A stretch of DNA of 64,000 nt from Candidatus Poribacteria bacterium (GTDB taxonomy: Bacteria; Poribacteria; WGA-4E; WGA-3G), in assembly GCA_965116815.1 (NCBI GenBank), contig OZ220722.1:2293941-2357940 (forward strand), in the 5' to 3' direction. The notes beneath the pieces are model-generated. The model saw nothing but the letters and a program-made list of their open reading frames with translations. It had not been told where the DNA came from and did no database searches. The position numbers and the translations under genes are program-made. Below are positions 3,153 to 51,466 of the stretch, one piece after another. Numbering within the stretch: the first letter of the stretch is position 1; each line of letters opens with the position of its first letter.

Positions 3153-3167
3153 CGAAAGATCGTAAGT

Positions 3168-3294
3168 CCGTAATGAAATGGAGAGATTTTGCTTGGGTAT
3201 TTCTGCGGATTTCTCCAAATCTACGGAAAGGAACTTCAATGCTCAAACACACTTCATCGAACTGCAAGGAAAATTAAAAAAAGAGAGGTTTTTA
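3168..3294 (+). repeat. conserved ~125-nt upstream/leader element, copy U1 (CCGTAATGAAATGGAG...TTTTGCTTGGGT...GCAAGGAAAATTAAAAA), immediately 5' of the hppA ATG
   Basis: About 75% identical across its whole length to 10797-10900, which lies upstream of an unrelated gene. Confidence 0.5.
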
Positions 3295-5664: not shown

Positions 5665-5691
5665 TAGGTGGAGCATTAAAACGGACCTAAC

Positions 5692-6207
5692 ATGAGATTA
5701 AAAAACATCGTTACATACGCTTTGAGTCTATCTATCTTCATCATTGGATGTCAGCAGTTAGATGATCAGATAAAAACGGGACCCGATGATGTCATATCTA
5801 TTTCTGTAGATGATGTTAATCCAGACGAAATATTTTATACAGGTGCTGTTTTCATCGGTGATGCGCGAGATAAGTTCGGAACCGACGCATATACCTTAAA
5901 TTCTGCCACTATCACAGATGATACACTGAATATCAGTGTATCCTACGGTGGTGGGTGTGAAGCACATCAATTGACGCTTATCGTTTCGGATACATTCCTT
6001 GAATCGTTCCCTGTTCAACTCCATGTTTCCCTCGCGCACAATGCTAACGGGGACGCATGCGAAGCATGGCTAACTGATGACTATCACTTTGATCTTACGC
6101 CGATCAAAACACTATATCAGAACGCTTACCGACAAGAAACAGGAACCATCATTTTACGACTCAAAGATGCTCCAAACGAAGACCTTGTCTACGAGTTTAC
6201 AATGTAA
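5692..6207 (+). CDS. hypothetical lipoprotein (signal peptide with lipobox ...FIIGC)
   Basis: 171 aa with an N-terminal lipoprotein signal. No recognisable domain. Confidence 0.45.
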
Positions 6208-6299
6208 TTGCGATTTCTAAATCTCGGCGTTGTGGGGAAACCGTGTTCCCTTGCCGTCGCCTTCTGCTTGTTTATCAATTTGTAGGAGAACCCAAAGAA

Positions 6300-7979: not shown

Positions 7980-8003
7980 AACCTGTTCCCATTTTTATCT
8001 TTA

Positions 8004-8032
8004 GGGCAGGACCTGGTGCCTGCCCTTTTTTT
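8004..8032 (+). terminator. rho-independent terminator after ilvD (GGGCAGG-loop-CCTGCCC + T7)
   Basis: A GC-rich perfect stem followed by TTTTTTT, 25 nt after the ilvD stop. Confidence 0.7.
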
Positions 8033-8110
8033 GTATATAAGCATCGGAGGGGATGTCCATTGAATGAGAAAAATCTTGTAAAATCCGCTTTAATTTGTTA
8101 GAATGTGCCT

Positions 8111-8509
8111 ATGAGTAAACAGAGACCTATTATCCTCAACCAATCAGAACTTGACTGGGAAACGTGGGACGATCCAGACCTCGCTGCCAAAAGTCCAGTT
8201 CGTTGGAAGATCCTCATATCGGGTGAACGTGGACCCAGCAGTCGGCTGGCCACCGGAATAGCAGAGATAGCTCCGGGGACCTTGCTACCGCTCCATCACC
8301 ATGAACCCGCGGAGACGTATTATGTCATCAGTGGTTCCGGGTATGTAACAGTAGAAGATCACGAGGCATCGCTCAGTCCGGGTGCGTCAGTCTTTATACC
8401 TTCTAACGCAAAGCATTCACTCCGTTGCACCGGCACCGAGAAATTGGTTTTCCTGTTCACCTTCGCAGCGGATCGGTTCGATGAAATCGTCTACCATTTC
8501 AATGTGTAA
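8111..8509 (+). CDS. cupin-domain protein (RmlC-like cupin, small barrel)
   Basis: The LPLHHHE...E..YVISGSGYV...G..V.IP...H motif pattern is typical of cupin_2. Confidence 0.6.
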   Translation: MSKQRPIILNQSELDWETWDDPDLAAKSPVRWKILISGERGPSSRLATGIAEIAPGTLLPLHHHEPAETYYVISGSGYVTVEDHEASLSPGASVFIPSNAKHSLRCTGTEKLVFLFTFAADRFDEIVYHFNV

Positions 8510-8557
8510 TGTTCTTTACCGAACAGTTTGACAATGCTTCTAAGGTAAATTGTTGAG

Positions 8558-9547
8558 ATGTCAACATTAAAAACAACAGACACTAAACCTATCATTTCCA
8601 ACGCGGATGCCAGTTTGATAGACATCGGCGATGGCATCGTCCGGCTTGAATTGCATAGCAAGTTGAACATCATCGGGGACGAAATGTTGGAGATGTTTGA
8701 TGCCGCGTTGGACGAGGTGGAAACGAATTATGCGGGGATGGTTGTTGCTACAGAAGCGAAGCATTTTTCCGTGGGACTCAACCTCATCCTTCTGTTGGAA
8801 CGTGCCAAGAACCAAAATTGGGATGCGATTTCGGGAACACTTCGCAAACTGCAAACCGTCTGCACAAGACTTCGGACAGTATCAAAACCGGTCGTTGCAG
8901 CGACAGCAGGTATGGCACTCGGCGGTGGGTGTGAACTCGCATTCGGTGCGGATGCGGTGCAAGCCTTCTCTGAAAGTTCCATCGGTCTCGTTGAACTCCG
9001 CGTGGGGCTTATTCCCGGTGGCGGTGGCACCAAGGAGATGGCATTCCGGTGCTTGCACGGACAAACACTGTCCGCCCCGATTCAGGATCTGTTTCCGTCC
9101 GTTAATAAGGCTTTTGATACAATTCGCGAATCCAAGATTTCACAAAACGCTGCAGAAGCAGTGGGACTTGGTTACCTTCGTCTAACTGATGCTATCTCAT
9201 CGAATCAGGAGACGCATATTGAAGATGCCAAGCAACTGGTCCTCTCAAAGCACAAAGCGGGGTATAATCCGCCTGAACCGCAACAGATATTTGTACTTGG
9301 TGAGGAGGGGATCGCTCGTCTCAATCTACAAACACATCTCCTTCGGCAAGCGGATGCTATTGATGACTATACGCAGCATCTCGCCAATCAATTGGCTTAC
9401 GTCCTCTGTGGCGGCGCACTTTCGGCTCCGCAATTTGTCCCCGAACAGTATCTACTTGACTTGGAACATGAAGTCTTCCTCAGCCTTTGTGGACGACAGG
9501 AAACGCATGCGAGGATAGAAGCAACGCTCCAAAAGGGTAAAAAGTAA
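8558..9547 (+). CDS. enoyl-CoA hydratase/isomerase (crotonase-fold) family protein
   Basis: Oxyanion-hole region ATAGMALGGGCELAF with the crotonase fold. Its stop overlaps the next start (TAATG), which suggests translational coupling to the thiolase. Confidence 0.7.
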   Translation: MSTLKTTDTKPIISNADASLIDIGDGIVRLELHSKLNIIGDEMLEMFDAALDEVETNYAGMVVATEAKHFSVGLNLILLLERAKNQNWDAISGTLRKLQTVCTRLRTVSKPVVAATAGMALGGGCELAFGADAVQAFSESSIGLVELRVGLIPGGGGTKEMAFRCLHGQTLSAPIQDLFPSVNKAFDTIRESKISQNAAEAVGLGYLRLTDAISSNQETHIEDAKQLVLSKHKAGYNPPEPQQIFVLGEEGIARLNLQTHLLRQADAIDDYTQHLANQLAYVLCGGALSAPQFVPEQYLLDLEHEVFLSLCGRQETHARIEATLQKGKK

Positions 9548-10734
9548 TGCGAACGCTATCAGACGTAGTTATCGTATCTGCGGTGCGCACAGCTGTAGGA
9601 AGAGCAGGGAAAGGAACGCTGAGAAACACGCGACCTGATGAACTCGCCGCTGCCGCGCTCCATGGTGCAGTTGATAGACTCCCACAGCTTGACTTGGACA
9701 CCATAGATGATGTCATCATTGGATGCGCTACACATGAGGGACCACAAGGGTACAATATCGCTCGCATTGCCAGTTCGCGTGCCGAGTTTCCCGTCTCTGT
9801 GCCTGCCATTACGATCAACCGTTTCTGTGCCTCCGGTTTAGAAACGATTGCAATGGGTGCTGAGCAGATTCGATCTGGACGCGCCGAGATAGTAGTCGCG
9901 GGTGGTGTGGAGAGCATGAGTCAAGTCCCGTTCGGTGCCAATCTTTCTCCGAACCCTATGCTTATAGCGCATGCGCCGGATGCCTACCTCAGTATGGGAT
10001 TAACTGCTGAAAATCTGGCGCGAAAATATAGTATATCTCGCACCGCACAGGACGCTTATGCGTATCAGAGCCATCGCAAGGCGATCTCGGCGATTGATGC
10101 AGGCAAATTTCGAGAAGAAATTGTTCCGTTCACGGTAGAGGAAACGCATCTCAATTCAGAGGGTGCCTCTGAAACGAACAGTTCTGTCTTTGATATAGAT
10201 GAGGGACCCCGCCGAGATACATCACCAGAAGCGTTGGCATCTCTCAAACCCGTTTTTCACGTGGATGGCACAGTGACGGCTGGCAATGCCTCCCAGATGA
10301 GTGACGCTGCCGCCGCTGTCGTCCTCATGTCCGAGGCGCGCGCGGAGGCAGAAGGTTACAAGCCCTTGGCTCATTTTGCCAGTTACGCCACAGCCGGTGT
10401 ATCGCCCGAAATCATGGGCATCGGACCTGTGCCAGCAATCCCGAAAGCACTCGCGTCGGCAGGGTTAACTTTAGCAGATATAGACGTTATAGAACTCAAC
10501 GAAGCATTTGCCGTACAAGCCCTCGCCGTAATTGAAGAGGCACAGTTGCCATCCGAAAAAGTAAACGTCAACGGCGGGGCAGTCGCGTTAGGGCATCCGC
10601 TCGGTTGCACTGGAACGAAACTCACTGTGAGCCTGATTAATGAGATGCGTCGGCAACATCACCGATACGGCATGGTAACGATGTGTGTCGGCGGTGGTAT
10701 GGGTGCCGCTGGTATTTTTCTAAATCCGACGTAG
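9547..10734 (+). CDS. acetyl-CoA C-acyltransferase / 3-ketoacyl-CoA thiolase
   Basis: Thiolase active-site Cys NRFCASGLE, and a C-terminal GHPLGCTGTK...CVGGGMG. Confidence 0.9.
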   Translation: MRTLSDVVIVSAVRTAVGRAGKGTLRNTRPDELAAAALHGAVDRLPQLDLDTIDDVIIGCATHEGPQGYNIARIASSRAEFPVSVPAITINRFCASGLETIAMGAEQIRSGRAEIVVAGGVESMSQVPFGANLSPNPMLIAHAPDAYLSMGLTAENLARKYSISRTAQDAYAYQSHRKAISAIDAGKFREEIVPFTVEETHLNSEGASETNSSVFDIDEGPRRDTSPEALASLKPVFHVDGTVTAGNASQMSDAAAAVVLMSEARAEAEGYKPLAHFASYATAGVSPEIMGIGPVPAIPKALASAGLTLADIDVIELNEAFAVQALAVIEEAQLPSEKVNVNGGAVALGHPLGCTGTKLTVSLINEMRRQHHRYGMVTMCVGGGMGAAGIFLNPT

Positions 10735-10796
10735 AAAAAAGGAGACGGTGTTCCTCCGCTTCCGCCACACCCGCGAAGTTTTAATGCGCGCATAGC

Positions 10797-10900
10797 CCGT
10801 AATGAAATGGAGGGTTTTTGCTTGGGTGTTTTTTTAGATAGACGGGGAGGAACGTCAAAGATCAAATCCACTTCAACAAACCGCAAGGGAAATTAAAAAT
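10797..10900 (+). repeat. conserved upstream/leader element, copy U2, immediately 5' of the lactonase ATG
   Basis: Aligns with 3168-3294 (CCGTAATGAAATGGAGGGTTTTTGCTTGGGTG...GCAAGGGAAATTAAAAAT). Confidence 0.5.
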
Positions 10901-11917
10901 ATGCAAACTCATGTCTATCTCTCCATAGCAGGAGAAAACAGAATCGCCATTTACACGTATGATGCCTCTAATGGCGGCATCGAACTTCAGGAAAACATCA
11001 ACGTTACGGGTTCTCCAGGTCCCTTAGCACTCTCACCGTGTGGTAACTACTTGTATGCTGGTCTACGCTCCAGTCGCGAAATCGCAAGTTTCCGTATTGA
11101 CGAAGAGACAAAACACCTCTCACACTTGCGGACAGTCCAGTTAGACGCGGATACGTGTTATATTGCGCCAGACAAAACCGGTAATTTCCTGCTTTCCGCC
11201 TATTACGGTGCTGGCAAAGTTACTGTACATACAATCGGCGACGATAAAACCGTTCAAGGTGAACCGCTTCAGACCGTCGAAACCGATATACACGCCCACT
11301 GTGTCGAAACAGATGCCTCAAACCGATTTGCTTTTGTGCCACACACTGTCCCTCGAAACGCTATCTACCAGTTCCATTTTAACGAGGATACAGGCGTACT
11401 TACGCAAAACCCTGTAGGAAATCTCAATCCGGGTGCACCGATTGGACCCCGGCATTTCTGCTTTCATCCGAACAAACCGGTCCTCTATTTTTCAAATGAA
11501 CAGGGATCAAGTGTCTCCGCATACACCCTTCAGGAAGGAGGAGACCACCCCGGAATCTTAGTAGACTTACAGGACGATCTCTCTACGCTCCCCGCAGATT
11601 TTGATGCAGATAATACTTGTGCGCAGATTCACATCGACCCACAAGGAACGTTTCTCTACGTCTCTAATCGCGGGCACGACAGCATCGCAGGATTCGCAAT
11701 TGACGAGGACAGCGGCAAATTAAGTGCTGTCGGACATCAACTGACCGAGCCGACACCACGCGTTTTTAATATCGACGGAACTGGCAATTATCTCTTTGTC
11801 GGTGGTCAGGGTTCAGGACAACTCGCTACCTACCGCATCAATCGGGAAAGTGGCGCGTTGTCTCCTCTCACCACCTATGCTGTTGGCGAAAACCCTATGT
11901 GGGTGCTTTTTGTATAG
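10901..11917 (+). CDS. 7-bladed beta-propeller lactonase (6-phosphogluconolactonase / YbhE-Pgl-like)
   Basis: Lactonase-family pattern: repeated ...GxxPRHF.F.P.G..LYV.NE.., and YVSNRGHDSIAGFAID. Confidence 0.6.
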   Translation: MQTHVYLSIAGENRIAIYTYDASNGGIELQENINVTGSPGPLALSPCGNYLYAGLRSSREIASFRIDEETKHLSHLRTVQLDADTCYIAPDKTGNFLLSAYYGAGKVTVHTIGDDKTVQGEPLQTVETDIHAHCVETDASNRFAFVPHTVPRNAIYQFHFNEDTGVLTQNPVGNLNPGAPIGPRHFCFHPNKPVLYFSNEQGSSVSAYTLQEGGDHPGILVDLQDDLSTLPADFDADNTCAQIHIDPQGTFLYVSNRGHDSIAGFAIDEDSGKLSAVGHQLTEPTPRVFNIDGTGNYLFVGGQGSGQLATYRINRESGALSPLTTYAVGENPMWVLFV

Positions 11918-11927
11918 AAAGAGGAAA

Positions 11928-12542
11928 ATGGCACGACGCGGAATTTTTATTACATTTGAAGGCATAGAAGGCGCAGGGAAGACGACGCAATCAGAACGTT
12001 TAGCAACCGCTCTGGGACCGGACATTGTACTCACCCGTGAACCTGGGGGCACACACATTTCTGAACGGATTCGCGATCTCTTCCTGACATCAGACGGAAT
12101 AACGCCGATGACAGAGTTGTTGCTGATAGCTGCTGCACGCACACAACACGTCACTGAACTCATACGTCCCGCATTACACGCGAAGCGAACCGTCATCTGT
12201 GATAGGTTTATTGATGCTACTGTGGCGTATCAAGGCTATCGCGGGGGCATCGACCTTGCGTTTATTCACCAATTAAACCACACTGCTACTGACGGCTTGA
12301 CACCTGACATCACCTTTATCCTCGATCTATCTCCAGAGATAGGACTATCACGCCAACAGCAAGGCGGCGTGCAGCGCGATCGCCTGGACAGAGAGTCGTT
12401 GGAATCGCATCGGAAGGTTCGCGAGGGATACCTATCCGTCGCGAAAGCGAACCCACATCGTATCAAATTGATAGACGCTACACAGCCTGCAGATGCTGTC
12501 CACGCTGCGATCTTAGCTGAATATCAAGATTACGCATGGTAA
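11928..12542 (+). CDS. tmk: thymidylate kinase
   Basis: MARRGIFITFEGIEGAGKTTQ (P-loop), a DRF/DRY motif and the LID region. The ORF-track extension back to 11796 overlaps the lactonase and was rejected. Confidence 0.85.
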   Translation: MARRGIFITFEGIEGAGKTTQSERLATALGPDIVLTREPGGTHISERIRDLFLTSDGITPMTELLLIAAARTQHVTELIRPALHAKRTVICDRFIDATVAYQGYRGGIDLAFIHQLNHTATDGLTPDITFILDLSPEIGLSRQQQGGVQRDRLDRESLESHRKVREGYLSVAKANPHRIKLIDATQPADAVHAAILAEYQDYAW

Positions 12543-41679: not shown

Positions 41680-42159
41680 ATGAAAACCGATAATAATGGC
41701 AATCAGTTACCGAAGGAGACAAAACTGGCGTACGCGTATTATAAACTGTACCGTGATATGCCGGCAGAGGAACGTTCTTTGCGGGTGCTATGTGAACGCG
41801 AAGTGAACGGTAAAAAAAGATCTATTTCGCTACTTGGGCGTTGGTCGAGTGAACACAATTGGCAAGAGCGAATTGCGGCTTATGACGCTGAAGCTGAGCG
41901 TGCGGCGTATCAAGAAAAATTAGCTCAGCGTCAGGCAGAGGTTGAGGCGTTTATAGACGAAGATATGGCGATCTCCATTAAATTCCAAAAGCTTTGTAAG
42001 ACGCGGCTTGAGGAATTGGACCAAGCCGGAAAGGATATGGATTGTAAAGAGTTGCGTCAATTGGCGTTGACGTATAAAGAATGTCGGGAGTGGCTAAAGA
42101 ACCTGATCGGGATTCTGGGGGAGGTAGAGGACGATGAAGCGGAAACGGCAGAAGATTAA
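41680..42159 (+). CDS. hypothetical protein (charged, helical; mobile-element-associated?)
   Basis: 159-aa ORF with a TATACT-type promoter upstream. Its 3' end overlaps the next ORF. Confidence 0.4.
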   Translation: MKTDNNGNQLPKETKLAYAYYKLYRDMPAEERSLRVLCEREVNGKKRSISLLGRWSSEHNWQERIAAYDAEAERAAYQEKLAQRQAEVEAFIDEDMAISIKFQKLCKTRLEELDQAGKDMDCKELRQLALTYKECREWLKNLIGILGEVEDDEAETAED

Positions 42160-43138
42160 TTTTCATGAGGTACGTTATCCGAAGCAGTTGAAATCAAAGG
42201 TAACTTTGATGTCTCCAGAACGACTTGGGGAATTGTATACAGAATGGGTCGATTTCGTTCGGCAGTTTACCCTGTGTGGTGGCGGCGAATGGTATATTGA
42301 TTTCTGTAATGACGAGTTTCGCGAATGGTTTGATAGTGAGGACTGTTGGTGGTCAAAGAAGGATAATATCCTCGCGTTTCGTCGGTGGTATGAAAAGAAC
42401 AAGGAGGTGTTGACATCTGCAGCATTTCAACACTATAAGGCGGAACAAGAAGCACAGAAAACAGCATTACATAAGCGGTTTTATTCCTTAGATCCTATCA
42501 AATACCATTATGAGGTTTCTCTTGGTTATATCGGTAGATGGTTGACTATTCTTGAGAGATGGTATAAAGAGGAGGCAGCGATATATAAACTGGCGCAGGC
42601 TTTGCTTTTGGAGGTTGCAATCACTGAATGCGTCTTTTTACGAGAGACAACATCTGTGCGGGGGAGTCAGGAATATAAAGAGTGGCTTCTGGTGGATGAG
42701 GCGAATGATCTGTTTCCACAGATGCGCAATAGAGGTCCACTGGACTGGAAATGGCAGGCATTGAAATCGAGTAATGATTGCTATCGGGGTGACATGGAAC
42801 AGGCAGGGTTGATTGTTTCGGTGATGCGCGCCCAGGTCTCCTCTGGAAATCTTGATGAAGAGGTTCTCGGTTTGATAGCGGCGGAGCATGCGCGGTTTTC
42901 ATCAAGTGATCTGGATTTTGAGTATCACCGGTCGTTAGCGATTGCGTCTTGTTTTTCTTCTGATTCTATTACAGTAAATCCATCGAGGTTGTTAGAAGGA
43001 ACAGAAAAATGTTTGCAAGCGTGGAATGTAAGAGATAGGAGCTCTGGATGGGATGCACTTGCGGTTCAAAAACAGGAAGAGTATCGGGCATTTTGGGAAA
43101 GGTGGAAGAACGTTCAAACAGAGCATGAGAATTTATAG
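42134..43138 (+). CDS. hypothetical protein (Trp/Cys-rich N-terminal region; unknown family)
   Basis: 334-aa ORF overlapping the upstream gene by about 26 nt (operon). Confidence 0.4.
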   Translation: MKRKRQKINFHEVRYPKQLKSKVTLMSPERLGELYTEWVDFVRQFTLCGGGEWYIDFCNDEFREWFDSEDCWWSKKDNILAFRRWYEKNKEVLTSAAFQHYKAEQEAQKTALHKRFYSLDPIKYHYEVSLGYIGRWLTILERWYKEEAAIYKLAQALLLEVAITECVFLRETTSVRGSQEYKEWLLVDEANDLFPQMRNRGPLDWKWQALKSSNDCYRGDMEQAGLIVSVMRAQVSSGNLDEEVLGLIAAEHARFSSSDLDFEYHRSLAIASCFSSDSITVNPSRLLEGTEKCLQAWNVRDRSSGWDALAVQKQEEYRAFWERWKNVQTEHENL

Positions 43139-43281
43139 TGTTGAAGGGGCATCAAGGTGCATTAGGTGGACATGTTTGTTGCCCGTTTCGTATGGACTGT
43201 CCAAGTTGTTTCTGTGAATCTTCAGTGTGCCTTTTGTTATTGTATAGGTTACGGAGAGTCCACGGCGTGTGCCTACTACTT

Positions 43282-43539
43282 TTAATAAGGATCCGTGATA
43301 GTCTCATTCACAGTCTCACGCCATGAGTCTTCAAATAGCATACGGAAAGACATTGTTTTGTTGTTGGTTGAAATGATCTCCATCGTGCCGTGTTGTGTAG
43401 CGTTTCGATATAATTTTTCTAACGATTTGATAAGTTTCTGTTTGTAGGTGGTGTCGGTGTTACCTTCGAGGTGTTGTCCTTTGGTCTCGAAACCAACGCC
43501 CTTCGTTTCATATCTGAATAATGATTTCCTCATGGTCAA
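43282..43539 (-). CDS. HicA-like toxin (YcfA family), probable
   Basis: The N-terminus RKSLFRYETKGVGFETKGQHL resembles E. coli HicA KQSEFRRWLESQGV..GSNHL. It overlaps the upstream HicB-like gene. Confidence 0.45.
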   Translation of the reverse strand: MTMRKSLFRYETKGVGFETKGQHLEGNTDTTYKQKLIKSLEKLYRNATQHGTMEIISTNNKTMSFRMLFEDSWRETVNETITDPY

Positions 43540-43729
43540 CTTTCGCAGCCTTGATAGCCTCTTTACTATTGTAATCTATCATTTCGAGAAGCATAATTCG
43601 TAGTGCTTCAAGCAATTCGTCCTTCGTCCGTTCTTGACCATTTACGCCGGGAATTTCCTGTATCCAACCCATCCACCAGCCTTCGTCCTGTTGGATAACA
43701 GCGGTATAAGTTTGTGTCAGCGGTTCCAT
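43508..43729 (-). CDS. HicB-like antitoxin (UPF0150 family)
   Basis: YTAVIQQDEGWWMGWIQEIPGVNGQERTKDELLEALR is the UPF0150/HicB N-domain signature. Confidence 0.55.
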   Translation of the reverse strand: MEPLTQTYTAVIQQDEGWWMGWIQEIPGVNGQERTKDELLEALRIMLLEMIDYNSKEAIKAAKVDHEEIIIQI

Positions 43730-43904
43730 CCTCCTTTAAGAGGGTACAACAACTTTAGACTTAAGAATCAAGCCACCCTTTTCATCTTTTATGAAATTTC
43801 CGTGTGTAGTCGGTGAGGAAGTCTTGTTTCTCTTGCCGTTTGATATCCTCACAGAGTGCGCGTAAATCGTACTGAAAAGAAGCAGCCCATTCGTCGCGAA
43901 TCTG

Positions 43905-44180
43905 GTGAATTTCCTCAATACCGACCAGTATCGTGGATACAATGAGATCGGTAAACAGATGAAGCACGAAACGATGAATCGAAGTGAGCAGTGGGAGCCC
44001 AATGGTATCCATACCAACACAATCGAAGGCTTCTGGTCTTTCGTCAAACGGGCGTGGTATGGATCACATCACCACTATTCAACAGGATACACGCCCTTGT
44101 ATCTCGCAGAGGCAGGCTATAAGTATAACTACCGAGAAACCAACATCTTTGAGAAGTTTCTCAAGCAAAGCATGCAGTGA
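43905..44180 (+). pseudogene. IS1595-family (ISXO2-like) transposase C-terminal fragment
   Basis: TDQYRGYNEIG...H..MN....W..NGIHTNTIEGFWSFVKR matches the IS1595 DDE C-terminal region. The upstream two-thirds are absent. Confidence 0.6.
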
Positions 44181-44320
44181 AGAACGGATACAAGTGGAAA
44201 CTCAAAAAGGAAAATTACAACTTTCTCAAGTCCAAAACGACTAATTCCGATAACGCAAGTTGCTACCTTTTTATGCATATAGCACTCCGCTGGAGTGCAA
44301 TCGCACAAATACGCTATTTT

Positions 44321-44530
44321 CTATAGATATATCACCCCGCTGGGGTGGGGAAAAGACAAAAAACCTTTCCGAAGTGGGCAAAATCTGTTAGTAGCAACTT
44401 GGATTAAATTATGACGATGTTTCCAAGAACGTCGCAAATCCAGAACAAGCATGTCTTCAAGGGTTTCCTTTTCAGGTATCCACTCGCCATTTTCAACACA
44501 GTTCGGTTCATAGAAGAATCCGTTTTTCAT
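44321..44530 (-). CDS. small hypothetical protein (good AAGGAG RBS; C-terminal part may be spurious)
   Basis: MKNGFFYEPNCVENGEWIPEKETLEDMLVLDL... behind a strong RBS. The ORF runs into a hairpin-rich region. Confidence 0.3.
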   Translation of the reverse strand: MKNGFFYEPNCVENGEWIPEKETLEDMLVLDLRRSWKHRHNLIQVATNRFCPLRKGFLSFPHPSGVIYL

Positions 44531-44750
44531 TAATCATACTCCTTGTAAAAAATGCCCGGTAGGTGCGGTTTTGCGGCGTACACGCCCAAATGCGACCTGC
44601 ATACTAACCGCACCGGATTTTAGACACAAACTTTGCATATCCCAAAATCTATTATTCAGATTCAGTAAGAGTATCCGATTCATCGGCATATCCCATAAAT
44701 TCTCGCATAAATGTATCGATTGTCTATTTTGTTAAGTTCAGAAATTAATC

Positions 44751-45620
44751 CTATTTCTTTGCCTCTGTTGTGAAATCAATGATGCGTATAACCCCCCAGT
44801 CGGCAGGTTCCCAATTCCGTGCCGCATCTGCCCATCGAAGTTGTACTCTATAGCGCTCTCCATGCCGTAACCAAAGGCCTTCACCCGGTAATCTCAAAAG
44901 GATTATACGCTTACCATCTATCAACATTGTCCATTTCATATCAATCTGGCGCGTGTTATTCCAGAGTTTCACGTTCGCGCTATCAATATCCTCGTCAAAG
45001 TCAAACACAAAACGTTCTGTGTCTTTAGGGACATTTATGTCCCCATGTCCGACACTACTTCTGATCATTTGGGGGGCTCTATTGTCTCCTTTCTTTGTTG
45101 TGAATGTAATTAGAATGGTGCGCTTATTTCCCTCAGTGTCTTCGACATCCCCGGATATTTCATATTGTCCGTCGGTTTTTAAATTAATCACGTTTCCAAG
45201 GGGTGTGAGAACAACTTTCTTGCCATTAACAATCCGTTTCCAACGAAGACTCTGTCTAAAGTTGTCGTGGTTTTTGTGGATTTGGATATTCGATTTTGCA
45301 ACATCTTCATCGAAAGTCAAGGTGATGCTATTCAAACGTATATGCACGTTTCTTTCACCGTCCGAGATGCTGCTTTCTACGAGTTTCGGACCAAAGATAT
45401 CAAAAACAGGTTCAGGTTCAGGTTCATCTACAATAGGTTCTATAATAGGAACTGCCGGATCTGGTTGTGGGACTAAAGGTTGGGATTGTGCTTCTGTATC
45501 AGGTTCCTCTATCACAACAGGTGTCGCAAAAATGCTTTGTGTGCCTTCGTGATCCCCGCTATCGACAGAACAGCCGATCACACAGGCAATGAGTATAGAC
45601 ATTAAGAGTGTTTTTATCAT
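44751..45620 (-). CDS. hypothetical lipoprotein (Ig-like/beta-rich?)
   Basis: Lipobox LIACVIGCS. The Pro/Glu-rich linker suggests a surface location. Confidence 0.45.
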   Translation of the reverse strand: MIKTLLMSILIACVIGCSVDSGDHEGTQSIFATPVVIEEPDTEAQSQPLVPQPDPAVPIIEPIVDEPEPEPVFDIFGPKLVESSISDGERNVHIRLNSITLTFDEDVAKSNIQIHKNHDNFRQSLRWKRIVNGKKVVLTPLGNVINLKTDGQYEISGDVEDTEGNKRTILITFTTKKGDNRAPQMIRSSVGHGDINVPKDTERFVFDFDEDIDSANVKLWNNTRQIDMKWTMLIDGKRIILLRLPGEGLWLRHGERYRVQLRWADAARNWEPADWGVIRIIDFTTEAKK

Positions 45621-45631
45621 CGTTTCCTCTG

Positions 45632-46309
45632 TTAGTGAAAATTGAGCGCAATGTTATAGACAATCTCAGAACTCTCGAAAGAGAATTCAATAGCACCGAT
45701 GAGTGTGATTGTCGGGGACATCTCTATTTCAATTCCGGCTTCTCCAGAGAATAGGTTAGCTGTGTCATCAATAAGAAGCTCACGAGTGGTTGATACGTTA
45801 CGCCAGATATTTGAATAGAAGACACCAAAATAAGGTCTGAGAAAGTTGTTAGGTTCATGTATGATACCGAGACCACCTGCGAGTATCGCATTTACTGAAT
45901 GCTGTGGTAGTCCGCTGCTATGGATTTGGTGATAGTGTGCCCGAAGCCCAGCTCTAAAAAAGTATTGTAATGTTGGCATGTTTCCTAATGGTCCTATGTG
46001 GGTCAATCGTAGTTCAGCAGACGGTGATGGTGGTATATCTAACGGTTCTTTACTGTCAATATGGATGAACCCGACGCTTGGGATTAGTGATACCATTGAA
46101 CTGTGCGTAAAAGCATAATCAAGGCTTATTCTGATGGTTTCTGCTCTAAAAACTTGGTTTTCGCGCCTGCGTTTTGGGAATTCGTAACGCTGTAATCCCA
46201 ATCCGAGTGCCCCTTTTCCTTCAGGTAATGCCTTTAAACGTGTCTGGGCTTCTGATGCCGGTATTAAGAAAAAGATAAAAATTAGGGTGAATATGCAATA
46301 TTTTATCAT
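45632..46309 (-). CDS. putative outer-membrane beta-barrel protein
   Basis: Signal peptide, alternating amphipathic strands and a C-terminal aromatic residue (..NFH). Confidence 0.4.
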   Translation of the reverse strand: MIKYCIFTLIFIFFLIPASEAQTRLKALPEGKGALGLGLQRYEFPKRRRENQVFRAETIRISLDYAFTHSSMVSLIPSVGFIHIDSKEPLDIPPSPSAELRLTHIGPLGNMPTLQYFFRAGLRAHYHQIHSSGLPQHSVNAILAGGLGIIHEPNNFLRPYFGVFYSNIWRNVSTTRELLIDDTANLFSGEAGIEIEMSPTITLIGAIEFSFESSEIVYNIALNFH

Positions 46310-46632
46310 TCAATTATCATCCTTTGGCATTTGGTATTCCTCTTAAAAAAGTGCAAAAGTGCAAAGTGGTGGACAGGGTATCCACGTCTTTGTGTTAGGT
46401 TAGTTCCAATACATACTCTCTTCTTTTTGTCGACGGAAAATTTCACTTGGATATGCCGCTGAATTTCAGAAGATGTAACATATCGTGTTTTCGGGACAGG
46501 TGATGTTTTGGGGCGTGATGGATTTCCTAATGGTTCCGGAAAATATTTAGAATCATTAGGTTTACCGCTCGCGTCCAGAATATCCTCTTGATATGATACA
46601 TAACCCATGAAAATCCCCCTTGCCGAGTTCAA
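46306..46632 (-). CDS. hypothetical protein
   Basis: 108-aa ORF whose start overlaps the OMP-like gene's stop. Confidence 0.3.
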   Translation of the reverse strand: MNSARGIFMGYVSYQEDILDASGKPNDSKYFPEPLGNPSRPKTSPVPKTRYVTSSEIQRHIQVKFSVDKKKRVCIGTNLTQRRGYPVHHFALLHFFKRNTKCQRMIIE

Positions 46633-46824
46633 ATTGAATTCGGATCAATAACAAACTGAAGGTTTGACCACTTTCTGTTTTCGATAGTCTATTTGGATTT
46701 ACCAGTCCAGTCCTTTATCCCCCTACCATGGTGGAAAGGTGGCAAAACGGAGAGAGTCTCCGATTCATGGTAGTGCCACCTTAGAACTGGTTACAATACT
46801 ATGACGTGAGTTCAACTTAAAAGT

Positions 46825-47421
46825 TTAGAGAACATCATACGTAGGAGCGTTCTCTCCACTGTACTTCAGATTAGCACCTTTTTTGTACCACCCGACATCG
46901 TCTTCGAGCCAATCATCAATTTCATCATCATGTAAAGGCACTTCACGTAAAAGTGCAGATCTAGCAACTTTCTCATAAACGAGCACGCTCTCATGCGTAG
47001 TGGTGAAACCTCGATTGTCACGACTTCCTTTTAGATTAAGAACTGCTGCAAGGCATACAATAAACGTATCAGCCCCAAATATTTCGTCCATGATCATTCG
47101 CAAATGATGCTGTTCGTGATGGTCAATAGAAACGAAAATAACGCCATCATCGGAAAGCAATTCGCGCAGCAAATGCAGGCGCGGCCACATCATGCAAAGC
47201 CATTTGTCATGGAGTTCAAGGTCTTCACCATCAACCGGACTGTTTTGAGCAAACCACGCTTGCATCAGCGGGCTATTCACTCGGTCATTGTACACCCAAG
47301 CCTGACTGCCTGTATTATATGGCGGATCAATGTAGATGCACTTGATCTTGCCAGCGTATTTTGGGAGAAGTGCCTTTAGTGCATGTAGGTTGTCGCCGTG
47401 GATAATGAGGTTATCATTCAA
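46825..47421 (-). pseudogene. N6-adenine/N4-cytosine DNA methyltransferase fragment (Type III Mod / beta-class-like), C-terminally truncated
   Basis: DNLHALKAL...IKCIYIDPPYNTG (motif IV DPPY) and HESVLVYEK. It stops after 198 aa, with no TRD or motif I. It begins with TTG directly after a poly-C tract. Confidence 0.7.
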
Positions 47422-47433
47422 CGGAGATTTTTC

Positions 47434-47446
47434 GGGGGGGGGGGGG
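47434..47446. repeat. homopolymeric G13 tract (C13 on the coding strand), 12 nt 5' of the Mod fragment start
   Basis: Seen directly in the sequence (ttcGGGGGGGGGGGGGtaaac). An upstream ATG at about 47546 would read through it into the Mod frame with 12 or 15 Cs rather than 13. Confidence 0.8.
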
Positions 47447-47563
47447 TAAACACGAATTAAGTGATTTTTCTGTGTCTATCTGTAGGGTGCGGACGGGGAC
47501 GGTGAGGTGGTGTCCGTATATGAATTGTTTGCCTTTGAAGTCGAGCGTGGGCATAGAGACTCC

Positions 47564-48412
47564 TTAAAAAATCTTATTCATATCAACAGGAAAACCTGCA
47601 TTTTTGATTTCTTGACCGAGTTTCAATTTCCAGTCTCCGCTATCCATAGGCACGTAGATTACGCCATCAATATCTGAGGGTTTCTCTATTTTTCCTTTGA
47701 AGAGCGGACATACTCGTTCACGACCCAGTTTTCCCATGAAATAACCGAGTTCAAAAACAACGTTCTGACGGGCTCTCGGTTTGCTTTCGTTCTCAATTTT
47801 ATCTTTTAAGGCACCAATATCGTCAGGTGTGAGTAGAACGATTGCAAATCCTGCATTACCGGCGTATTTTTCAAGCTTCTCAATGATCGTTAGTCCACTA
47901 CTGGGCTATTCGTGAAGGATAGTTACCTTTAAGCCCAATCTCTCTACAAACCTCGCAACGGTTTCTTTAACCCCATCATCGCGTCCGTGTACGATGAATA
48001 CTTCGTTACCCGAGATGAGCGGAAATGTGTCTGATGATTCATCGTACAGTTCAAGTTGATCCTGAATTCCCATTAGGTAATTGATATCCCTGTCTACATT
48101 TTCTCTGTATCTAATCAAATCCTTTGAAAACTCGACTCTTTCCTCCCTATTTGGAGACGAAACTATTCCCATAGGGTAAAAAATGCAGGCTCTTTCGTAT
48201 TCTTCTGCAACTAACGTCCCATCAAATAGGTGCAACAAAAGGTTTTTATTATGCCGTGACCAGTTTCCATGATCATTTCGAGCACGACTATATTCATCTC
48301 GTGCATCAATTTGTCTATCGCGGAGTTGTTGCCCTTTATCAATTTGCTCTTGTATTTTCTTCTCGGTTCCCTCTCTACTCACAAGCAATTTTGGAAGCGT
48401 TTTATCTTTCAT
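47564..48412 (-). pseudogene. TIR-like (COG4271/DUF2321-type, Cap12/PycTIR-like) protein with a novel ~130-aa N-terminal domain, interrupted by one in-frame TAG
   Basis: The ORF-track piece 47906-48412 ends ...[31 protein letters not shown]. The same frame continues [29 protein letters not shown]...RARQNVVFELGYFMGKLGRERV... to a TAA at about 47564. The paralog has CAG (Q) where this gene has TAG. Confidence 0.6.
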
Positions 48413-48861
48413 AGTTTCTCCTCAATAGGCAGTCCAGCGTTTTGCATGCCTTGACTGAGTTTCAGTTTCCAATCATCTGCACCATCCATGGGTACATAGA
48501 CTACGTTAGGAATATATGATGGTAATTCAACACCTTCTTTGTAGAGGATACACACTCGTTTATCGCCTAACCCCCCGAGGAGATAACCGAGCTCAAAGAT
48601 AACGTTTTGGCGGGCCCTAGGTTTCCGTTGTCCTGTAGCTTTTGAGGACCCAACATCGTCCGGTGTCAACAAGACAATTGCGAAACCCGCTTCATCTGCC
48701 TGTTCTTCAAACTTATCAATGATTGTTCGTCCCTTACTGGGTTGTTCGTCAAGAACGGTTGGCTTTAAACCCAACGTCTCTACAAATTTGGAGACGGCTG
48801 TTTTGGCTTCATCATCATGCCCATGGGCGATAAACACTTTCGATTGAGTTTTCACATTCAT
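48409..48861 (-). CDS. stand-alone TIR-like domain protein (COG4271/DUF2321-type)
   Basis: [20 protein letters not shown]...[18 protein letters not shown]...[10 protein letters not shown]...[32 protein letters not shown]. Its stop overlaps the next gene's ATG (ATGA). Confidence 0.65.
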
Positions 48862-49100
48862 GATCTTTCCCCCATTTTCACCCTGACGTGCTGGAGGCGG
48901 AAAAACGCCTATTCATAATCAATCAAAACACAACTCTGCACTAAATTATAGCACTAATTCATCCATAGTGTCAAATCCCATTTTGGACAGGAGGTGTAAA
49001 TATTTTGTCAAAAAGGAAACCGAGGACTATACACCTATCACACCATAGGGGCATAGACGCGCGTTCTAAAATCGGGGTTAGAAACCCTTTCTACAAGAAG

Positions 49101-49251
49101 GTTGTCAGTGAGTAAGTCGGGAAGCGGAGTTCCCTCCTACCAAGAGGGTTATCAGTTGTCGGTAAGTGTCGGGAAGCGGAGTTCCCTCCTACATTGGCTT
49201 TCAGCAGTCACCGGAGTTCCTGCGGAGTCGGGAATCGGAGTTCCCTCCTAC
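49101..49251. repeat. short tandem array: the 25-nt unit GTCGGGAAGCGGAGTTCCCTCCTAC occurs three times (third copy carries a T substitution at unit position 9) with 27- and 34-nt spacers that themselves carry GTTGTCAGT / GTTATCAGTTGTCGG motifs
   Basis: Seen directly. The unit has an internal GGGAA...TTCCC palindrome. The spacers resemble each other and the MITE-family core, so this is a tandem repeat rather than CRISPR. Confidence 0.7.
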
Positions 49252-49483
49252 AGCTCAAAATTGTAAAATTCGCCATATTTACACTTTCTTTGGATACGAG
49301 CCTCCGCCCTGTTACGGAGATTTGAAACCCTATTTCTATAAAAATCGTTTTATTAATGGGGATAGTGTATTAAAAATAGTTAGGATTTACGCAGCGCCCT
49401 TTGCTGGCGAGGTTTGAAACCTCGCCAGCGGCGTGCGGGCCATAGGTACTCATCAGTTTGCGTCAGTTTGCGTAAAGAAAATT

Positions 49484-51466
49484 ATGTTATCTTTTGAGCA
49501 ACTCATCCAGAATGTAACAGACACAACACAACCGAGCATTGTGCGCAGTAGTGCTATTGCAAGTCTTGTCGCACAAGGCAACTCACAAGGGATAAGCCCT
49601 CTAATTGAGTGCCTTGCTGATTCGGATTCGGTGATACGGCGCGAAGCCGCGAAAGCACTTGCACAGCTGGACGCAACTCGTGCAGCGGAGCCACTACTTG
49701 AAGCATTACAAGTGGAGTCGAATGACCTTACGCTTTGGGCAATGCTTGAAGCTGTTGGTGAGTTGGCCACACCTGATGCCCTTCCTCTGCTCGAATCGTT
49801 CTCCACTGCTGGTTCTATGCTCACGCGGATAGAGGTGAAAAAAAGTATCGCCCGCATTCAGACTCGTTATGTTGACGGAAGTCCCTCAGTATCTCCAAAG
49901 ACATTTGAACCTGAGCCGCATGATGAACAGATGGATGCAAATGAACCGCCAACAGTGAGTTTTGAAGACTCACAGGTCGCGCCGGAATCGGAAGTGGTAG
50001 AACTGGGTTCAGATCCTTCACCCGCTCATAGTACGCAACGGCTTCAGACAGACACCTCCGAGGATCCGCTTATAGAGCAGGTAGAGGATGTAACAACAGA
50101 TGAGGTATCAGCAGCTGAATCTGGTGAGGAACAGTCTAACCTACACGAAGCGACTGTGGTGGCACCAGAAGAGATAACTGATGCAACGAATTATACACAG
50201 CTCACTGAGGAACCGATTGAGGCTATGGGTGAAGCGGAATCTGTAGAAGAGGGAATCGATATCACAGATCCGGTACATCCTGAAGAACCTACAGAGCAGG
50301 TAGCAACTGATACGGAATCGGCACAACGAGAAAAAGCGGACAAGGAAATAGACGATTTGGCAGAGTCCATCGCGCAATCCACTCGTCTCGCGGGTTCTTC
50401 TGTTAACCTTCCTGTATTAGCACCTAATGCTGCCACTGTGCCGTATCATCCAAAAGGAACCGCACTTGAAGAACCACCCCGTGAGAATTTTTTCCTCACG
50501 CTGATACACCCAGGCAGGTACCTCTCTAAACAGTGGCTATACCGAACGCGTGTTTATCTGCTCTTATGGGCGGCTCTCATTATCGCTACGATCGGTTTTA
50601 CCCAATATCAGAAGTATAGTAGCGTAGAGTTAAGTCCGCTATCTCGCATTGGACTTTCTGACGATGAACTACCGGCGTTGGTAAAACGCTCCTTGGCAGA
50701 AGGTGATTTCTACATCCAAGAGGGGTATTATAGGAAAGCCATTAATTCGTATGAACTGAGTAAGAATCTTGACATCTTACCGATTAGTTTCTATAGAAAA
50801 CTCGGATTTGCATACTTCAAGGAAGGTCAGTATGCACTCGCGGCTGAAGCATACGAAATGTTTTTAGAGGCGAGAGAGGACGACAATCCGGACGTATTTG
50901 CCGCTGAAGCCTCGCTCGTTGGTGTATATCCACTGACTTCGATAGAAAAGGGAACGGCACGCGACTATGAAACCTACAATATCCTCGGTATAGCATACAT
51001 GAAACTCGGACGTGTATTAGAAGCACAACGCGCTTACGAACAGGCGATACGTCTTGCGCCTAAATATGGCGAGGCATACAATAACCTTGCGCGCCTCTAT
51101 GCCGATAATTATCCGCACGTCTTAGCTGCAGACTCGCAAGTTTTACCGTTGTCTACAGTTTCCGTTTTGCAAACTGTCCCCAAACTGAGACTCGCTGAGG
51201 CGTTAGCCTATACAGCGGTGACACTGAACCCAGATGTCGCCGCCTATCACGATACCCTTGGCTGGGTTTTATCAAGACGGGGTCAGGTAAACAAGGCAAT
51301 AAAAACTTTAGAACGTGCTATTGATCTGCAAAGCGATGCCGTTGAACCGCACTATCATCTCGCACAGGTTGCGCTCAAAGCCAACGAACGGAAGAAGGCA
51401 GCGCAAGCCATCCGAAATGTGTTCAAACTTAACCCTGCTTTTGTTCCTCTCAACGCGGAGCAGTAG
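49484..51466 (+). CDS. membrane-anchored protein with N-terminal HEAT (PBS-lyase-type) repeats, an acidic linker, one TM helix and C-terminal TPR repeats
   Basis: SDSVIRREAAKALAQL HEAT-like repeats, TM VYLLLWAALIIATIGF, and C-terminal TPR-like A..YE.A..L.P...A..N units. Confidence 0.5.
   Translation: MLSFEQLIQNVTDTTQPSIVRSSAIASLVAQGNSQGISPLIECLADSDSVIRREAAKALAQLDATRAAEPLLEALQVESNDLTLWAMLEAVGELATPDALPLLESFSTAGSMLTRIEVKKSIARIQTRYVDGSPSVSPKTFEPEPHDEQMDANEPPTVSFEDSQVAPESEVVELGSDPSPAHSTQRLQTDTSEDPLIEQVEDVTTDEVSAAESGEEQSNLHEATVVAPEEITDATNYTQLTEEPIEAMGEAESVEEGIDITDPVHPEEPTEQVATDTESAQREKADKEIDDLAESIAQSTRLAGSSVNLPVLAPNAATVPYHPKGTALEEPPRENFFLTLIHPGRYLSKQWLYRTRVYLLLWAALIIATIGFTQYQKYSSVELSPLSRIGLSDDELPALVKRSLAEGDFYIQEGYYRKAINSYELSKNLDILPISFYRKLGFAYFKEGQYALAAEAYEMFLEAREDDNPDVFAAEASLVGVYPLTSIEKGTARDYETYNILGIAYMKLGRVLEAQRAYEQAIRLAPKYGEAYNNLARLYADNYPHVLAADSQVLPLSTVSVLQTVPKLRLAEALAYTAVTLNPDVAAYHDTLGWVLSRRGQVNKAIKTLERAIDLQSDAVEPHYHLAQVALKANERKKAAQAIRNVFKLNPAFVPLNAEQ

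What the first reader, a model, noticed from the sequence alone, without database searches (positions are those of the whole stretch)
47430..47550. G13/C13 homopolymer at the 5' end of the Mod-like methyltransferase. Candidate phase-variation switch.
A 13-nt G run on the plus strand (C13 on the coding strand) lies 12 nt upstream of the TTG where the MTase ORF begins. An ATG at about 47546 opens a frame (MPTLDFKGKQFIYGHHLTVPVRTLQIDTEKSLNSCLPPPP...) that hits TGA right after the tract with 13 Cs. With 12 or 15 Cs it would read straight into the DPPY methyltransferase frame. Long homopolymers at the start of mod genes are the classic slipped-strand phase-variation device. A run of 13 is far beyond chance at this GC content.
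Basis: partly seen in the sequence, partly recalled or inferred. Interest (0 to 1): 0.55.

Follow-up and report, generated by a model that had tools for sequence, protein, structure and literature searches.

The report
Poly-C switch on a dead methylase gene
The 13-base C run is a real slippage-prone on/off switch of the classic kind, sitting early in a Type III restriction-modification methylase gene of a sponge-symbiont bacterium (Poribacteria). In this genome the gene behind it is only a truncated leftover, so the switch no longer controls anything.

Summary
G13 on the + strand (C13 on the coding strand) lies at 47434-47446. It is the only G/C run longer than 6 in 64 kb, where about 7e-4 such runs are expected.

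The tract lies inside the coding sequence, at codons 37-41 of a Type III mod gene. The true start is ATG 47554, which has an AAGGAG ribosome-binding site; the TTG is not a start. C13 puts the gene out of frame and gives a 46-aa peptide. C9, C12, C15 or C18 restore the frame.

- mod is cut off after about codon 237 of roughly 565-570, so it has no target-recognition domain and no AdoMet motif I.
- res is reduced to its last 69 codons.
- A neighbouring TIR gene carries a nonsense codon.

Relatives support the switch. The syntenic ortholog L094 has C12 in an otherwise intact mod with an intact res. One Poribacteria species shows C11 (in frame, 585 aa), C12, C13 and C15 across public assemblies. 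In 91 family members, every frame break coincides with a tract.

Verdict: a fossil of a genuine phase-variation switch, and a new member of a known kind. Its exact length and any length variation in this genome are untested.

The parts
47434..47446 (-). Poly-C tract (C13 on the coding strand, G13 on +). It covers codons 37-41 of mod and encodes Pro4 plus one base.
   Evidence: It is the only G/C run longer than 6 in the window, and about 7e-4 such runs are expected.
47552..47565 (-). True mod translation start: Shine-Dalgarno AAGGAG at 47565-47560, a 5-nt spacer, then ATG at 47554-47552. The stop codon of the upstream TIR gene (TAA 47566-47564) overlaps the SD.
   Evidence: Sequence. The N-terminal residues MPTLDFKGKQFIYGHHLTVPVRTL are conserved in all homologs.
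47414..47554 (-). OFF-state N-terminal ORF of 46 aa, ending at TGA 47416-47414.
   Evidence: This exact peptide (P0126) is on record from a 5.85-Mb contig. It clusters with 11 similar OFF-state peptides from other assemblies.
46825..47421 (-). mod core fragment: a 198-aa ORF listed from TTG. It holds motif IV (DPPY) and the first half of the N6_N4_Mtase domain. Homology to Mod ends at 46842.
   Evidence: Pfam PF01555 matches profile positions 1-111 of 221 only. tblastn with the full-length ortholog covers only its residues 1-232 of 564. blastn homology ends at 46842. The best solved-structure match is EcoP15I Mod, E 6.8e-28.
43742..46841 (-). About 3.1 kb of unrelated DNA where the 3' 60% of mod should be. 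It holds a 108-aa ORF, an outer-membrane beta-barrel gene (46309-45632), a Big_5 lipoprotein gene (45620-44751) and an IS1595 transposase fragment (43905-44180, + strand).
43508..43729 (-). HicB-like small gene. In intact relatives it lies between mod and res.
   Evidence: 88-92% nt identity to the 71-aa gene between mod and res in L002 and L094. It has no Pfam hit. The HicB-like label rests on recalled sequence resemblance only.
43282..43491 (-). Remnant of res: the last 69 codons of an 876-aa Type III Res.
   Evidence: tblastn with L004 Res matches its residues 808-876 only. blastn to L002, L004 and L094 agrees.
47564..48412 (-). Second TIR-like gene (PF10137), interrupted by an in-frame TAG at 47908-47906.
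48409..48861 (-). First TIR-like gene (PF10137, PADLOC PDC-S35), intact. It is preceded by a perfect TTGACA-18-TATAAT promoter-like site at 48974-48945.

Best explanation
The tract is a genuine simple-sequence-repeat switch of the slipped-strand type. It sits in a variable linker between the conserved N-terminal 33 residues and the catalytic core of a Type III restriction-modification methyltransferase (Mod) in a Candidatus Poribacteria genome.

In intact relatives, a gain or loss of one C during replication moves the core in or out of frame with the start codon. That turns Mod on or off. Because Type III Res depends on Mod for target recognition (established knowledge), restriction goes on or off with it.

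In this window the tract is in an OFF length (C13), and the system behind it is irreversibly broken. mod ends after about codon 237, with no TRD and no AdoMet motif I. res is reduced to its last 69 codons. The tract is therefore a recent fossil of a phase-variation switch, not a working one.

Shown here: the tract, its position, the frame arithmetic, the truncation, the presence of the same tract in orthologs, and tract-length differences between assemblies of a related species. Inferred: that the length differences arise by replication slippage at a high, reversible rate, and that the decay of this copy is recent.
For: **Tract and frames:**

**True start and conserved N-terminus:**

**Type III identity**
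- The closest solved structure is EcoP15I Mod.
- Orthologous full-length Mod and Res match the PADLOC MTase_III and REase_III models end to end.

**Remnant status**
- Pfam covers half the domain.
- Only residues 1-232 of 564 of Mod and 808-876 of 876 of Res are present anywhere in the window.
- The syntenic intact loci L002 and L094 share both flanks with the window.

**Tract in relatives**
- About 1.0 Mb of related loci holds nine C/G runs of 9 nt or more. Seven of them lie in the mod linker.
- Among 91 mod 5' regions, 5 of 9 with a tract are out of frame, against 0 of 82 without one (Fisher p = 2.7e-6).
- The window's 46-aa OFF peptide clusters with 11 other OFF peptides.
- L094 is the syntenic ortholog, 94% aa identical. 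It has C12 in an otherwise intact 570-aa mod, plus an intact Res.

**Length polymorphism in one related species**
- C15 in GCA_022824625.1 and in the Logan assembly of SRR16351686.
- C13 in GCA_022824825.1 and in the Logan assembly of SRR16351696. The two loci are 99.4% identical over 9.2 kb.
- C12, inferred from P0156.
- C11, inferred from P0153. This 585-aa protein equals, residue for residue, the in-silico C11 repair of L089.

**Selection**
- dN/dS of OFF-state L094 against the tract-less genes L004 and L005 is 0.09-0.10. L004 against L005 gives 0.08.
- The window fragment against L094 gives 0.08.
- These genes are therefore not long-dead pseudogenes.

Against: - No read-level or population data exist for this genome. 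Tract-length heterogeneity here is untested, and a homopolymer of 13 could be miscalled by one base.
- The closest tract-less relatives (L002, L004, L005) show that the tract is not universal in the family.
- The length differences seen in relatives are between assemblies or strains, not within one clonal population. High-rate reversible switching is therefore inferred, not shown.
- Most tract-bearing copies were found through their OFF-state peptides. The high share of OFF states is biased by how they were found.
- In this window the gene is dead, so no function can be claimed for the tract here.
Confidence: 0.8

Rival explanations
1. Sequencing or assembly artefact. Either the homopolymer does not exist (for example a poly-G artefact or a chimeric junction), or its true length is 12, so there is no frameshift.
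For: - Homopolymers of 10 nt or more are error-prone on all platforms.
- No contig fetched for run ERR14375724 spans the tract. One Logan contig ends at window 47525, 79 nt before the tract, and another begins at 46484.
Against: - Both flanks of the tract are colinear with single orthologous genes (L004, L094) at 88% nt identity, so it is not a junction.
- The same tract occurs at the same linker in at least ten other independent assemblies, including short-read ones.
- Even with C12 the gene is still truncated.
Confidence: 0.07
2. A neutral poly-proline or poly-glycine linker with no switching role. On this view the runs are by-products of slippage in a tolerant linker, and the frameshifts are simply steps in pseudogene decay.
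For: - The linker is the most variable part of the protein in length and sequence.
- The window copy and L091 are truncated remnants as well as frameshifted.
Against: - The feature shared between copies is the DNA homopolymer, not the peptide. It encodes PPP, PPPP or GGG with different neighbours.
- It uses only CCC, the rarest Pro codon.
- OFF-state genes such as L094, L089, L092 and L095 are otherwise full-length, with intact res, and have dN/dS equal to in-frame genes.
- An in-frame C11 allele of the same gene exists alongside the C12, C13 and C15 alleles.
- Five tandem paralogs in L054 carry C8, C10 and C11 on near-identical linkers, in both frame states.
Confidence: 0.1
3. Expression by transcriptional slippage or programmed frameshifting. 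The DNA stays out of frame, but RNA polymerase or the ribosome slips on the long C run, so a fraction of the product is full length.
For: Most tract-bearing copies recovered are out of frame at the DNA level, in both the +1 and -1 senses.
Against: - That excess is largely an ascertainment effect, because the copies were found through an OFF-peptide cluster.
- An in-frame allele exists.
- No frameshift-stimulating structure or slippery heptamer was looked for or seen.
- The idea is irrelevant to function in this window because the gene is truncated.
Confidence: 0.04
4. A re-purposed switch. After the rearrangement, translation or non-translation of the mod fragment could modulate, by polarity, the outer-membrane and Ig-like lipoprotein genes now lying downstream on the same strand.
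For: - The same-strand gene order is TIR, TIR, mod', a 108-aa ORF, the OMP gene and the Big_5 lipoprotein gene.
- A strong promoter-like site lies only upstream of the first TIR gene.
- Surface proteins are typical phase-variable targets (general knowledge).
Against: - About 500 nt of non-coding sequence separate mod' from the OMP gene.
- There is no evidence of co-transcription, and the arrangement was not seen in any relative.
- This reading is pure inference.
Confidence: 0.02

Closest known systems
Phase-variable Type III mod genes with mononucleotide tracts (Helicobacter pylori modH, modJ, modL; Campylobacter upsaliensis modU), as surveyed by Atack et al. 2018 (PMC5909438)
   Same: - A homopolymeric G/C tract of 9 nt or more lies inside the mod ORF, and its length sets the reading frame.
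- Allelic variants differ in the central TRD, while the N- and C-terminal parts are conserved.
- Several tract lengths are seen among strains.
   Different: - The host is an uncultivated, large-genome (5.85 Mb) sponge symbiont, not a small-genome host-adapted pathogen.
- The tract lies in a linker only about 36 codons from the start.
- The window's copy is a truncated remnant without res, so no methylation or regulon can be controlled.
- No methylome or expression data exist for any member of this clade.
Haemophilus influenzae and Neisseria modA phasevarions with tetranucleotide repeats (PMC1976455, PMC5909438)
   Same: An SSR in the 5' part of a Type III mod gene gives ON/OFF switching by frame.
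   Different: - The repeat unit is 4 nt rather than 1 nt.
- In those systems the methyltransferase stays functional. Here mod itself is destroyed.
EcoP15I Type III restriction-modification system (PDB 4ZCF)
   Same: - It is the closest solved structure by sequence. Window residues 41-197 align to EcoP15I Mod 88-251, E 6.8e-28.
- It has the same beta-class motif order, with DPPY first.
- Orthologous loci carry a ResIII-helicase Res.
   Different: - No SSR was recalled for EcoP15I, and this was not checked here.
- The window lacks the TRD, motif I and nearly all of Res.

Membership tests
Type III R-M methyltransferase (Mod, beta-class N6-adenine MTase) | N6_N4_Mtase domain with motif IV (DPPY) near the N-terminus, and sequence similarity to characterised Type III Mod | tested here: met
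   PF01555, E 6.1e-16, covering profile positions 1-111 of 221 only. IDPPYNTG is present. EcoP15I Mod is the best PDB match, E 6.8e-28. The full-length ortholog L004 matches PADLOC MTase_III over residues 1-560.
Type III R-M methyltransferase (Mod, beta-class N6-adenine MTase) | Complete enzyme: a central target-recognition domain and the C-terminal AdoMet-binding motif I (FxGxG) | tested here: not met
   Homology ends at window 46842, after '...KYSGENAP'. tblastn with the 564-aa ortholog finds only its residues 1-232 anywhere in the 64-kb window. Orthologs carry DSFAGSGTT about 380 residues in.
Type III R-M system | Adjacent res gene with a ResIII helicase and a C-terminal nuclease | tested here: not met
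   Only the last 69 codons remain, at 43491-43285. An intact 874-876-aa Res is present in L002, L004, L089, L094 and L095.
Phase-variable (SSR-containing) mod gene, by the criteria of Atack et al. 2018 | Mononucleotide tract of 9 nt or more within the mod ORF | tested here: met
   C13 at codons 37-41. The criterion is quoted from PMC5909438.
Phase-variable (SSR-containing) mod gene, by the criteria of Atack et al. 2018 | A change in tract length toggles the reading frame between the start codon and the catalytic core | tested here: met
   In silico, C9, C12, C15 and C18 are in frame, and the other lengths stop within 8 codons.
Phase-variable (SSR-containing) mod gene, by the criteria of Atack et al. 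2018 | Different tract lengths observed among cells or strains of one species | tested here: inconclusive
   Not testable for the window's own genome. The pattern scan of JGI metagenomes gave only chance hits, and the in-silico C9, C11, C12, C14 and C15 products are not on record. It is met in a related Poribacteria species, which shows C11, C12, C13 and C15.
Phasevarion (phase-variable regulon) | A functional methyltransferase whose ON/OFF state changes genome methylation and gene expression | tested here: not met
   The gene product lacks the TRD and the AdoMet-binding motifs. Methylation and expression cannot be measured with these tools for any member.

The most novel reading that the evidence does not exclude
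The window's tract may be a decayed copy of a poly-C switch module that recurs in Type III systems of sponge-associated bacteria from different phyla (Poribacteria, Dehalococcoidia).

In some genomes the module is multiplied into tandem arrays of mod alleles. Each allele has its own TRD and its own tract, and the array is followed by a single res. L054 has five mod copies with tracts C8, C11, C10 and C11 in mixed ON/OFF states. L039 has two copies.

Such arrays would give a stochastic, combinatorial choice of methylation and restriction specificities within one cell line. To my knowledge this layout has not been described for Type III systems, and a full-text search found nothing on phase-variable Type III systems in sponge symbionts.
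Probability: 0.35. Interest if true: 0.65.

Novelty: new member of a known kind. Interest (0 to 1): 0.4.

Why it matters
For this window the finding matters little. It documents the erosion of a defence island (TIR, TIR, Type III R-M) in a Poribacteria genome, and it shows that the tract is a leftover.

The wider point concerns contingency-locus switching of Type III methyltransferases, which has been studied mainly in small-genome pathogens. The same switching is present, with several length alleles on public record, in uncultivated large-genome sponge symbionts. In some of these it is combined with tandem arrays of specificity alleles.

That gives a concrete, testable handle on how symbionts in a phage-rich, densely populated host tissue vary their restriction barriers and methylomes.

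Tried and rejected
- **Rfam scan of 42000-50000.** Only a weak CRISPR-DR9 hit (E 0.062) far from the tract. Nothing in the 46310-46841 spacer, despite interleaved stems seen by eye.
- **Exact-flank pattern scan of JGI metagenomes for tract-length variants.** Three chance matches in unrelated genes, so no population data.
- **blastn of the spacer 46310-46845 against plasmids.** No match.
- **Repeat search for IS ends around the truncation point.** Nothing convincing.
- **blastn of the inserted 3.1 kb against all fetched loci.** Only short patches.
- **Exact look-up of the 198-aa and 46-aa ORFs in the contig index.** Not on record there. The 46-aa peptide was later found by the cluster look-up.
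- **Early idea that many homologs are broken near a second 'PPP' before motif I.** Dropped. The homolog search lists only proteins of 423 aa or less and missed the 564-aa cluster of L004 and L005. The length pattern is probably a property of the search, not biology.
- **Idea that the tract-bearing clade is always OFF.** Rejected. An in-frame C11 allele is on record.
- **TTG 47421 as a start codon.** Rejected. It has no SD, and the conserved N-terminus lies upstream.

Full report
**1. The observation**

The + strand carries 13 consecutive G at 47434-47446, which is C13 on the coding - strand. No other G or C run in the 64-kb window exceeds 6 nt. At this composition (47% G+C) about 7e-4 runs of 13 or more are expected under a base-composition model, and about 3.6e-4 under a first-order Markov model.

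The ORF from ATG 47554 reads MPTLDFKGKQFIYGHHLTVPVRTLQIDTEKSLNSCLPPPPRKISVE and stops at TGA 47416-47414. With 9, 12, 15 or 18 C it runs into the DPPY methyltransferase frame. The four prolines are all CCC, the least used proline codon in the window's long ORFs (19%).

**2. Where the tract sits**

The gene start is ATG 47554. It is preceded by AAGGAG at a 5-nt spacing, and that site overlaps the stop codon of the upstream TIR gene. The first 32 or so residues are conserved in every homolog examined.

The TTG at 47421 is only the first start-like codon after a stop in the core frame, and it has no ribosome-binding site. The tract is therefore inside the coding sequence, at codons 37-41. It lies in a linker between the conserved N-terminal segment and the '(N/D)LIIHGDNL' start of the catalytic core. 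That linker varies in length and sequence across the family.

The protein is a Type III Mod:
- Pfam N6_N4_Mtase matches.
- The best solved-structure match is EcoP15I Mod, E 6.8e-28, with residues 41-197 aligned to 88-251.
- The full-length ortholog and its neighbour match the PADLOC Type III methyltransferase and restriction-enzyme models end to end.
- The organism is a Candidatus Poribacteria sponge symbiont.

**3. The gene behind the tract is a remnant**

Pfam covers only profile positions 1-111 of 221. Homology to orthologs stops at 46842, after '...KYSGENAP', and no frame continues it. A tblastn with the 564-aa ortholog (L004) and its 876-aa Res finds only two pieces in the whole window: Mod residues 1-232, and Res residues 808-876 at 43491-43285.

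Two relatives occupy the same chromosomal slot. They share the S8 peptidase and HEAT/TPR genes on one side and the SBP_bac_5 gene on the other, at 88-95% nt identity. Both show the intact layout TIR, TIR, mod, a small HicB-like gene, res (L002; L094).

Relative to them, the window differs in four ways:
- It has lost the 3' 60% of mod. About 3.1 kb of unrelated DNA sits there instead: an outer-membrane barrel gene, a Big_5 lipoprotein gene and an IS1595 fragment.
- It has lost the first 2.4 kb of res.
- It has an extra 1.8 kb after the res remnant.
- Its second TIR gene carries an in-frame TAG at 47908-47906.

The rest of the window has long uninterrupted ORFs, up to 1202 aa, so this is local decay and not a poor assembly. 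The decay is probably recent. dN/dS of the surviving fragment is 0.03-0.09 against L004 and 0.08 against L094, the same as between two intact genes (0.02-0.08).

**4. The same tract in relatives**

Among 83 loci fetched at that stage (80 species-representative genome loci plus L001-L003), the nearest tract-less orthologs (L002, L004, L005) have 'DNDPSLNDN' at this spot. Long runs occur at the same linker in:
- L039 (Poribacteria): two copies, each C9.
- L046 (Dehalococcoidia): C12.
- L054 (Dehalococcoidia): C8, C11, C10 and C11.
- L064 (Dehalococcoidia): G9.

About 1.0 Mb of these loci holds nine C/G runs of 9 nt or more, and seven of them are in this linker. Every frame break between the N-terminus and the core coincides with a tract. 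Five of 9 tract-bearing copies are out of frame, against 0 of 82 without a tract (Fisher p = 2.7e-6).

An exact look-up of the window's 46-aa OFF-state peptide then found it on record. It belongs to a 90%-identity cluster with 11 other peptides of 32-59 aa, most of which follow the pattern '...EKSLNxxLPPP(P)' plus an out-of-frame tail. DNA for five of those peptides gave:
- **L094:** syntenic with the window and 94% aa identical over 236 residues. C12 and out of frame, but otherwise a complete 570-aa mod with an intact 876-aa Res.
- **L095:** C10, with a 545-aa mod and an intact Res.
- **L091:** C12, and also truncated.
- **L089 and L092:** the same species, described next.

**5. Tract length differs within a species**

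L089 (GCA_022824625.1) and L092 (GCA_022824825.1) are 99.4% identical over 9.2 kb, with two alignment gaps. They carry C15 and C13 respectively. Each length was reproduced by an independent Logan assembly of the corresponding run. For this gene the in-frame lengths are 8, 11, 14 and 17.

The in-silico C11 product (585 aa) exists, residue for residue, in another public assembly (P0153). A fourth record pairs the 490-aa core ORF with a 46-aa N-terminal peptide that corresponds to C12 (P0155, P0156). The C11 and C12 lengths are inferred from the proteins, because the DNA of those contigs was not seen.

OFF-state L094 has dN/dS of 0.09-0.10 against tract-less in-frame genes, equal to the in-frame versus in-frame comparison. 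These genes are therefore maintained by selection despite being caught out of frame. That is what reversible switching predicts.

**6. Mechanism**

Shown:
- a hypermutable-type homopolymer in the 5' coding region;
- frame dependence on its length;
- stop codons in both alternative frames within 8 codons of the tract;
- length alleles, including in-frame and out-of-frame ones, in one related species.

Inferred: the length changes arise by slipped-strand mispairing at a high, reversible rate. Tracts of 9 nt switch at about 1e-3 in the studied cases cited in PMC5909438. Because Type III Res needs Mod (established knowledge), the switch in intact relatives would toggle both methylation and restriction.

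In this window the switch is at an OFF length and is attached to a gene that could not methylate DNA even when in frame.

**7. Rivals**

- **Assembly artefact.** Unlikely. Both flanks are colinear with single orthologous genes, and the tract recurs in many independent assemblies. A one-base miscall of the length cannot be excluded, but it would not change the verdict.
- **Neutral poly-Pro linker.** Disfavoured, because what is shared is the DNA run and not the peptide. The exclusive CCC usage, the intact and selected OFF-state genes, and the in-frame/out-of-frame allelic series also argue against it.
- **Transcriptional slippage or programmed frameshifting.** Not excluded for relatives, but not needed.
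- **Polar effect on the downstream surface-protein genes.** Pure speculation.

**8. Comparison with known systems and novelty**

This is the well-known SSR-in-mod design. [quoted passage not shown]

The window's copy meets the tract criteria. It fails the criteria for a functional Mod, a Type III system or a phasevarion. A full-text search found nothing on phase-variable Type III systems in sponge symbionts. The clade is therefore a new member of a known kind, and the window holds a fossil of it.

The tandem arrays of tract-bearing mod alleles in L054 and L039 are the most unusual thing seen, but they lie outside the window.

**9. Limits**

- There is no read-level data for this genome.
- The metagenome pattern scan gave only chance hits.
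- The homolog search listed only proteins of 423 aa or less and missed the 564-aa cluster, so absences in that list carry no weight.

Noticed in passing
L054 (Dehalococcoidia MAG OZ243977.1) 1-12208; L039 (Poribacteria OZ244048.1) 6001-12279: Relatives carry tandem arrays of mod alleles followed by a single res.
- L054 has five mod copies. Their N- and C-terminal parts are 78-100% identical and their central TRDs only 12-64%.
- Four of the five L054 copies carry a poly-C tract at the same linker: C8 OFF, C11 ON, C10 ON and C11 OFF.
- L039 has two copies. Both carry C9 and both are OFF.
   Followed up: partly
window 47906-47908 (- strand): An in-frame TAG interrupts the second TIR-like gene (PF10137) at the position where the first TIR gene has Gln (LDEQPS). 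The stop is also present in the 100%-identical Logan contig L087.
   Followed up: partly
window 46842; L001 8688: The window's mod truncation point coincides to the base (CCTA|) with the point where an IS630-like element (DDE_3) interrupts mod in L001. The intact sequence there is CCTAGAG. CTAG is, from memory, a typical IS630 target. No IS end was recognised in the window.
   Followed up: partly
window 47564-48974; L002, L089, L091, L094, L095: One to three TIR-like genes (PF10137, PADLOC candidate PDC-S35) lie directly upstream of this mod family in every one of these Poribacteria loci. In the window the last TIR stop codon overlaps the mod ribosome-binding site. A perfect TTGACA-18-TATAAT site lies at 48974-48945. 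This may be a composite TIR plus Type III defence operon.
   Followed up: no
window 46720-46790 (- strand): Interleaved inverted repeats lie in the spacer after the truncated mod: GGTGGCA...TGCCACC, CTACCATGG...CCATGGTAG, and an inner CGGAGA-CTC-TCTCCG hairpin. They were seen by eye. There is no Rfam hit and no similar copy in the fetched loci.
   Followed up: partly
window 43905-44180 (+ strand): A C-terminal fragment of an IS1595 transposase (91 aa) lies inside the DNA that replaces the mod 3' part. It may be a trace of the rearrangement that broke the system.
   Followed up: no
window 49094-49192 and 49391-49420: A 52-nt unit repeated twice (84% match) and a weak CRISPR-DR9 Rfam match (24 bits, E 0.062, below the gathering score) lie in the intergenic region between the TIR genes and the HEAT/TPR gene. 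Both are probably not significant.
   Followed up: no
L046 1548 (G10); L072 5589 (G9): These are the only two long G/C runs outside mod linkers in about 1 Mb of related loci. Both lie just upstream of gene starts, 30 nt before a GMC-oxidoreductase-like ORF and 68 nt before a small secreted protein. They may be promoter-located contingency tracts.
   Followed up: no
result list: All 120 best hits of the homolog search are 423 aa or shorter. The 57-member cluster of 564-aa orthologs (L004, L005; 92% identical to the query) was not listed, although it is in the collection. This looks like a property of the search rather than biology, so absence from that list is not evidence.
   Followed up: partly
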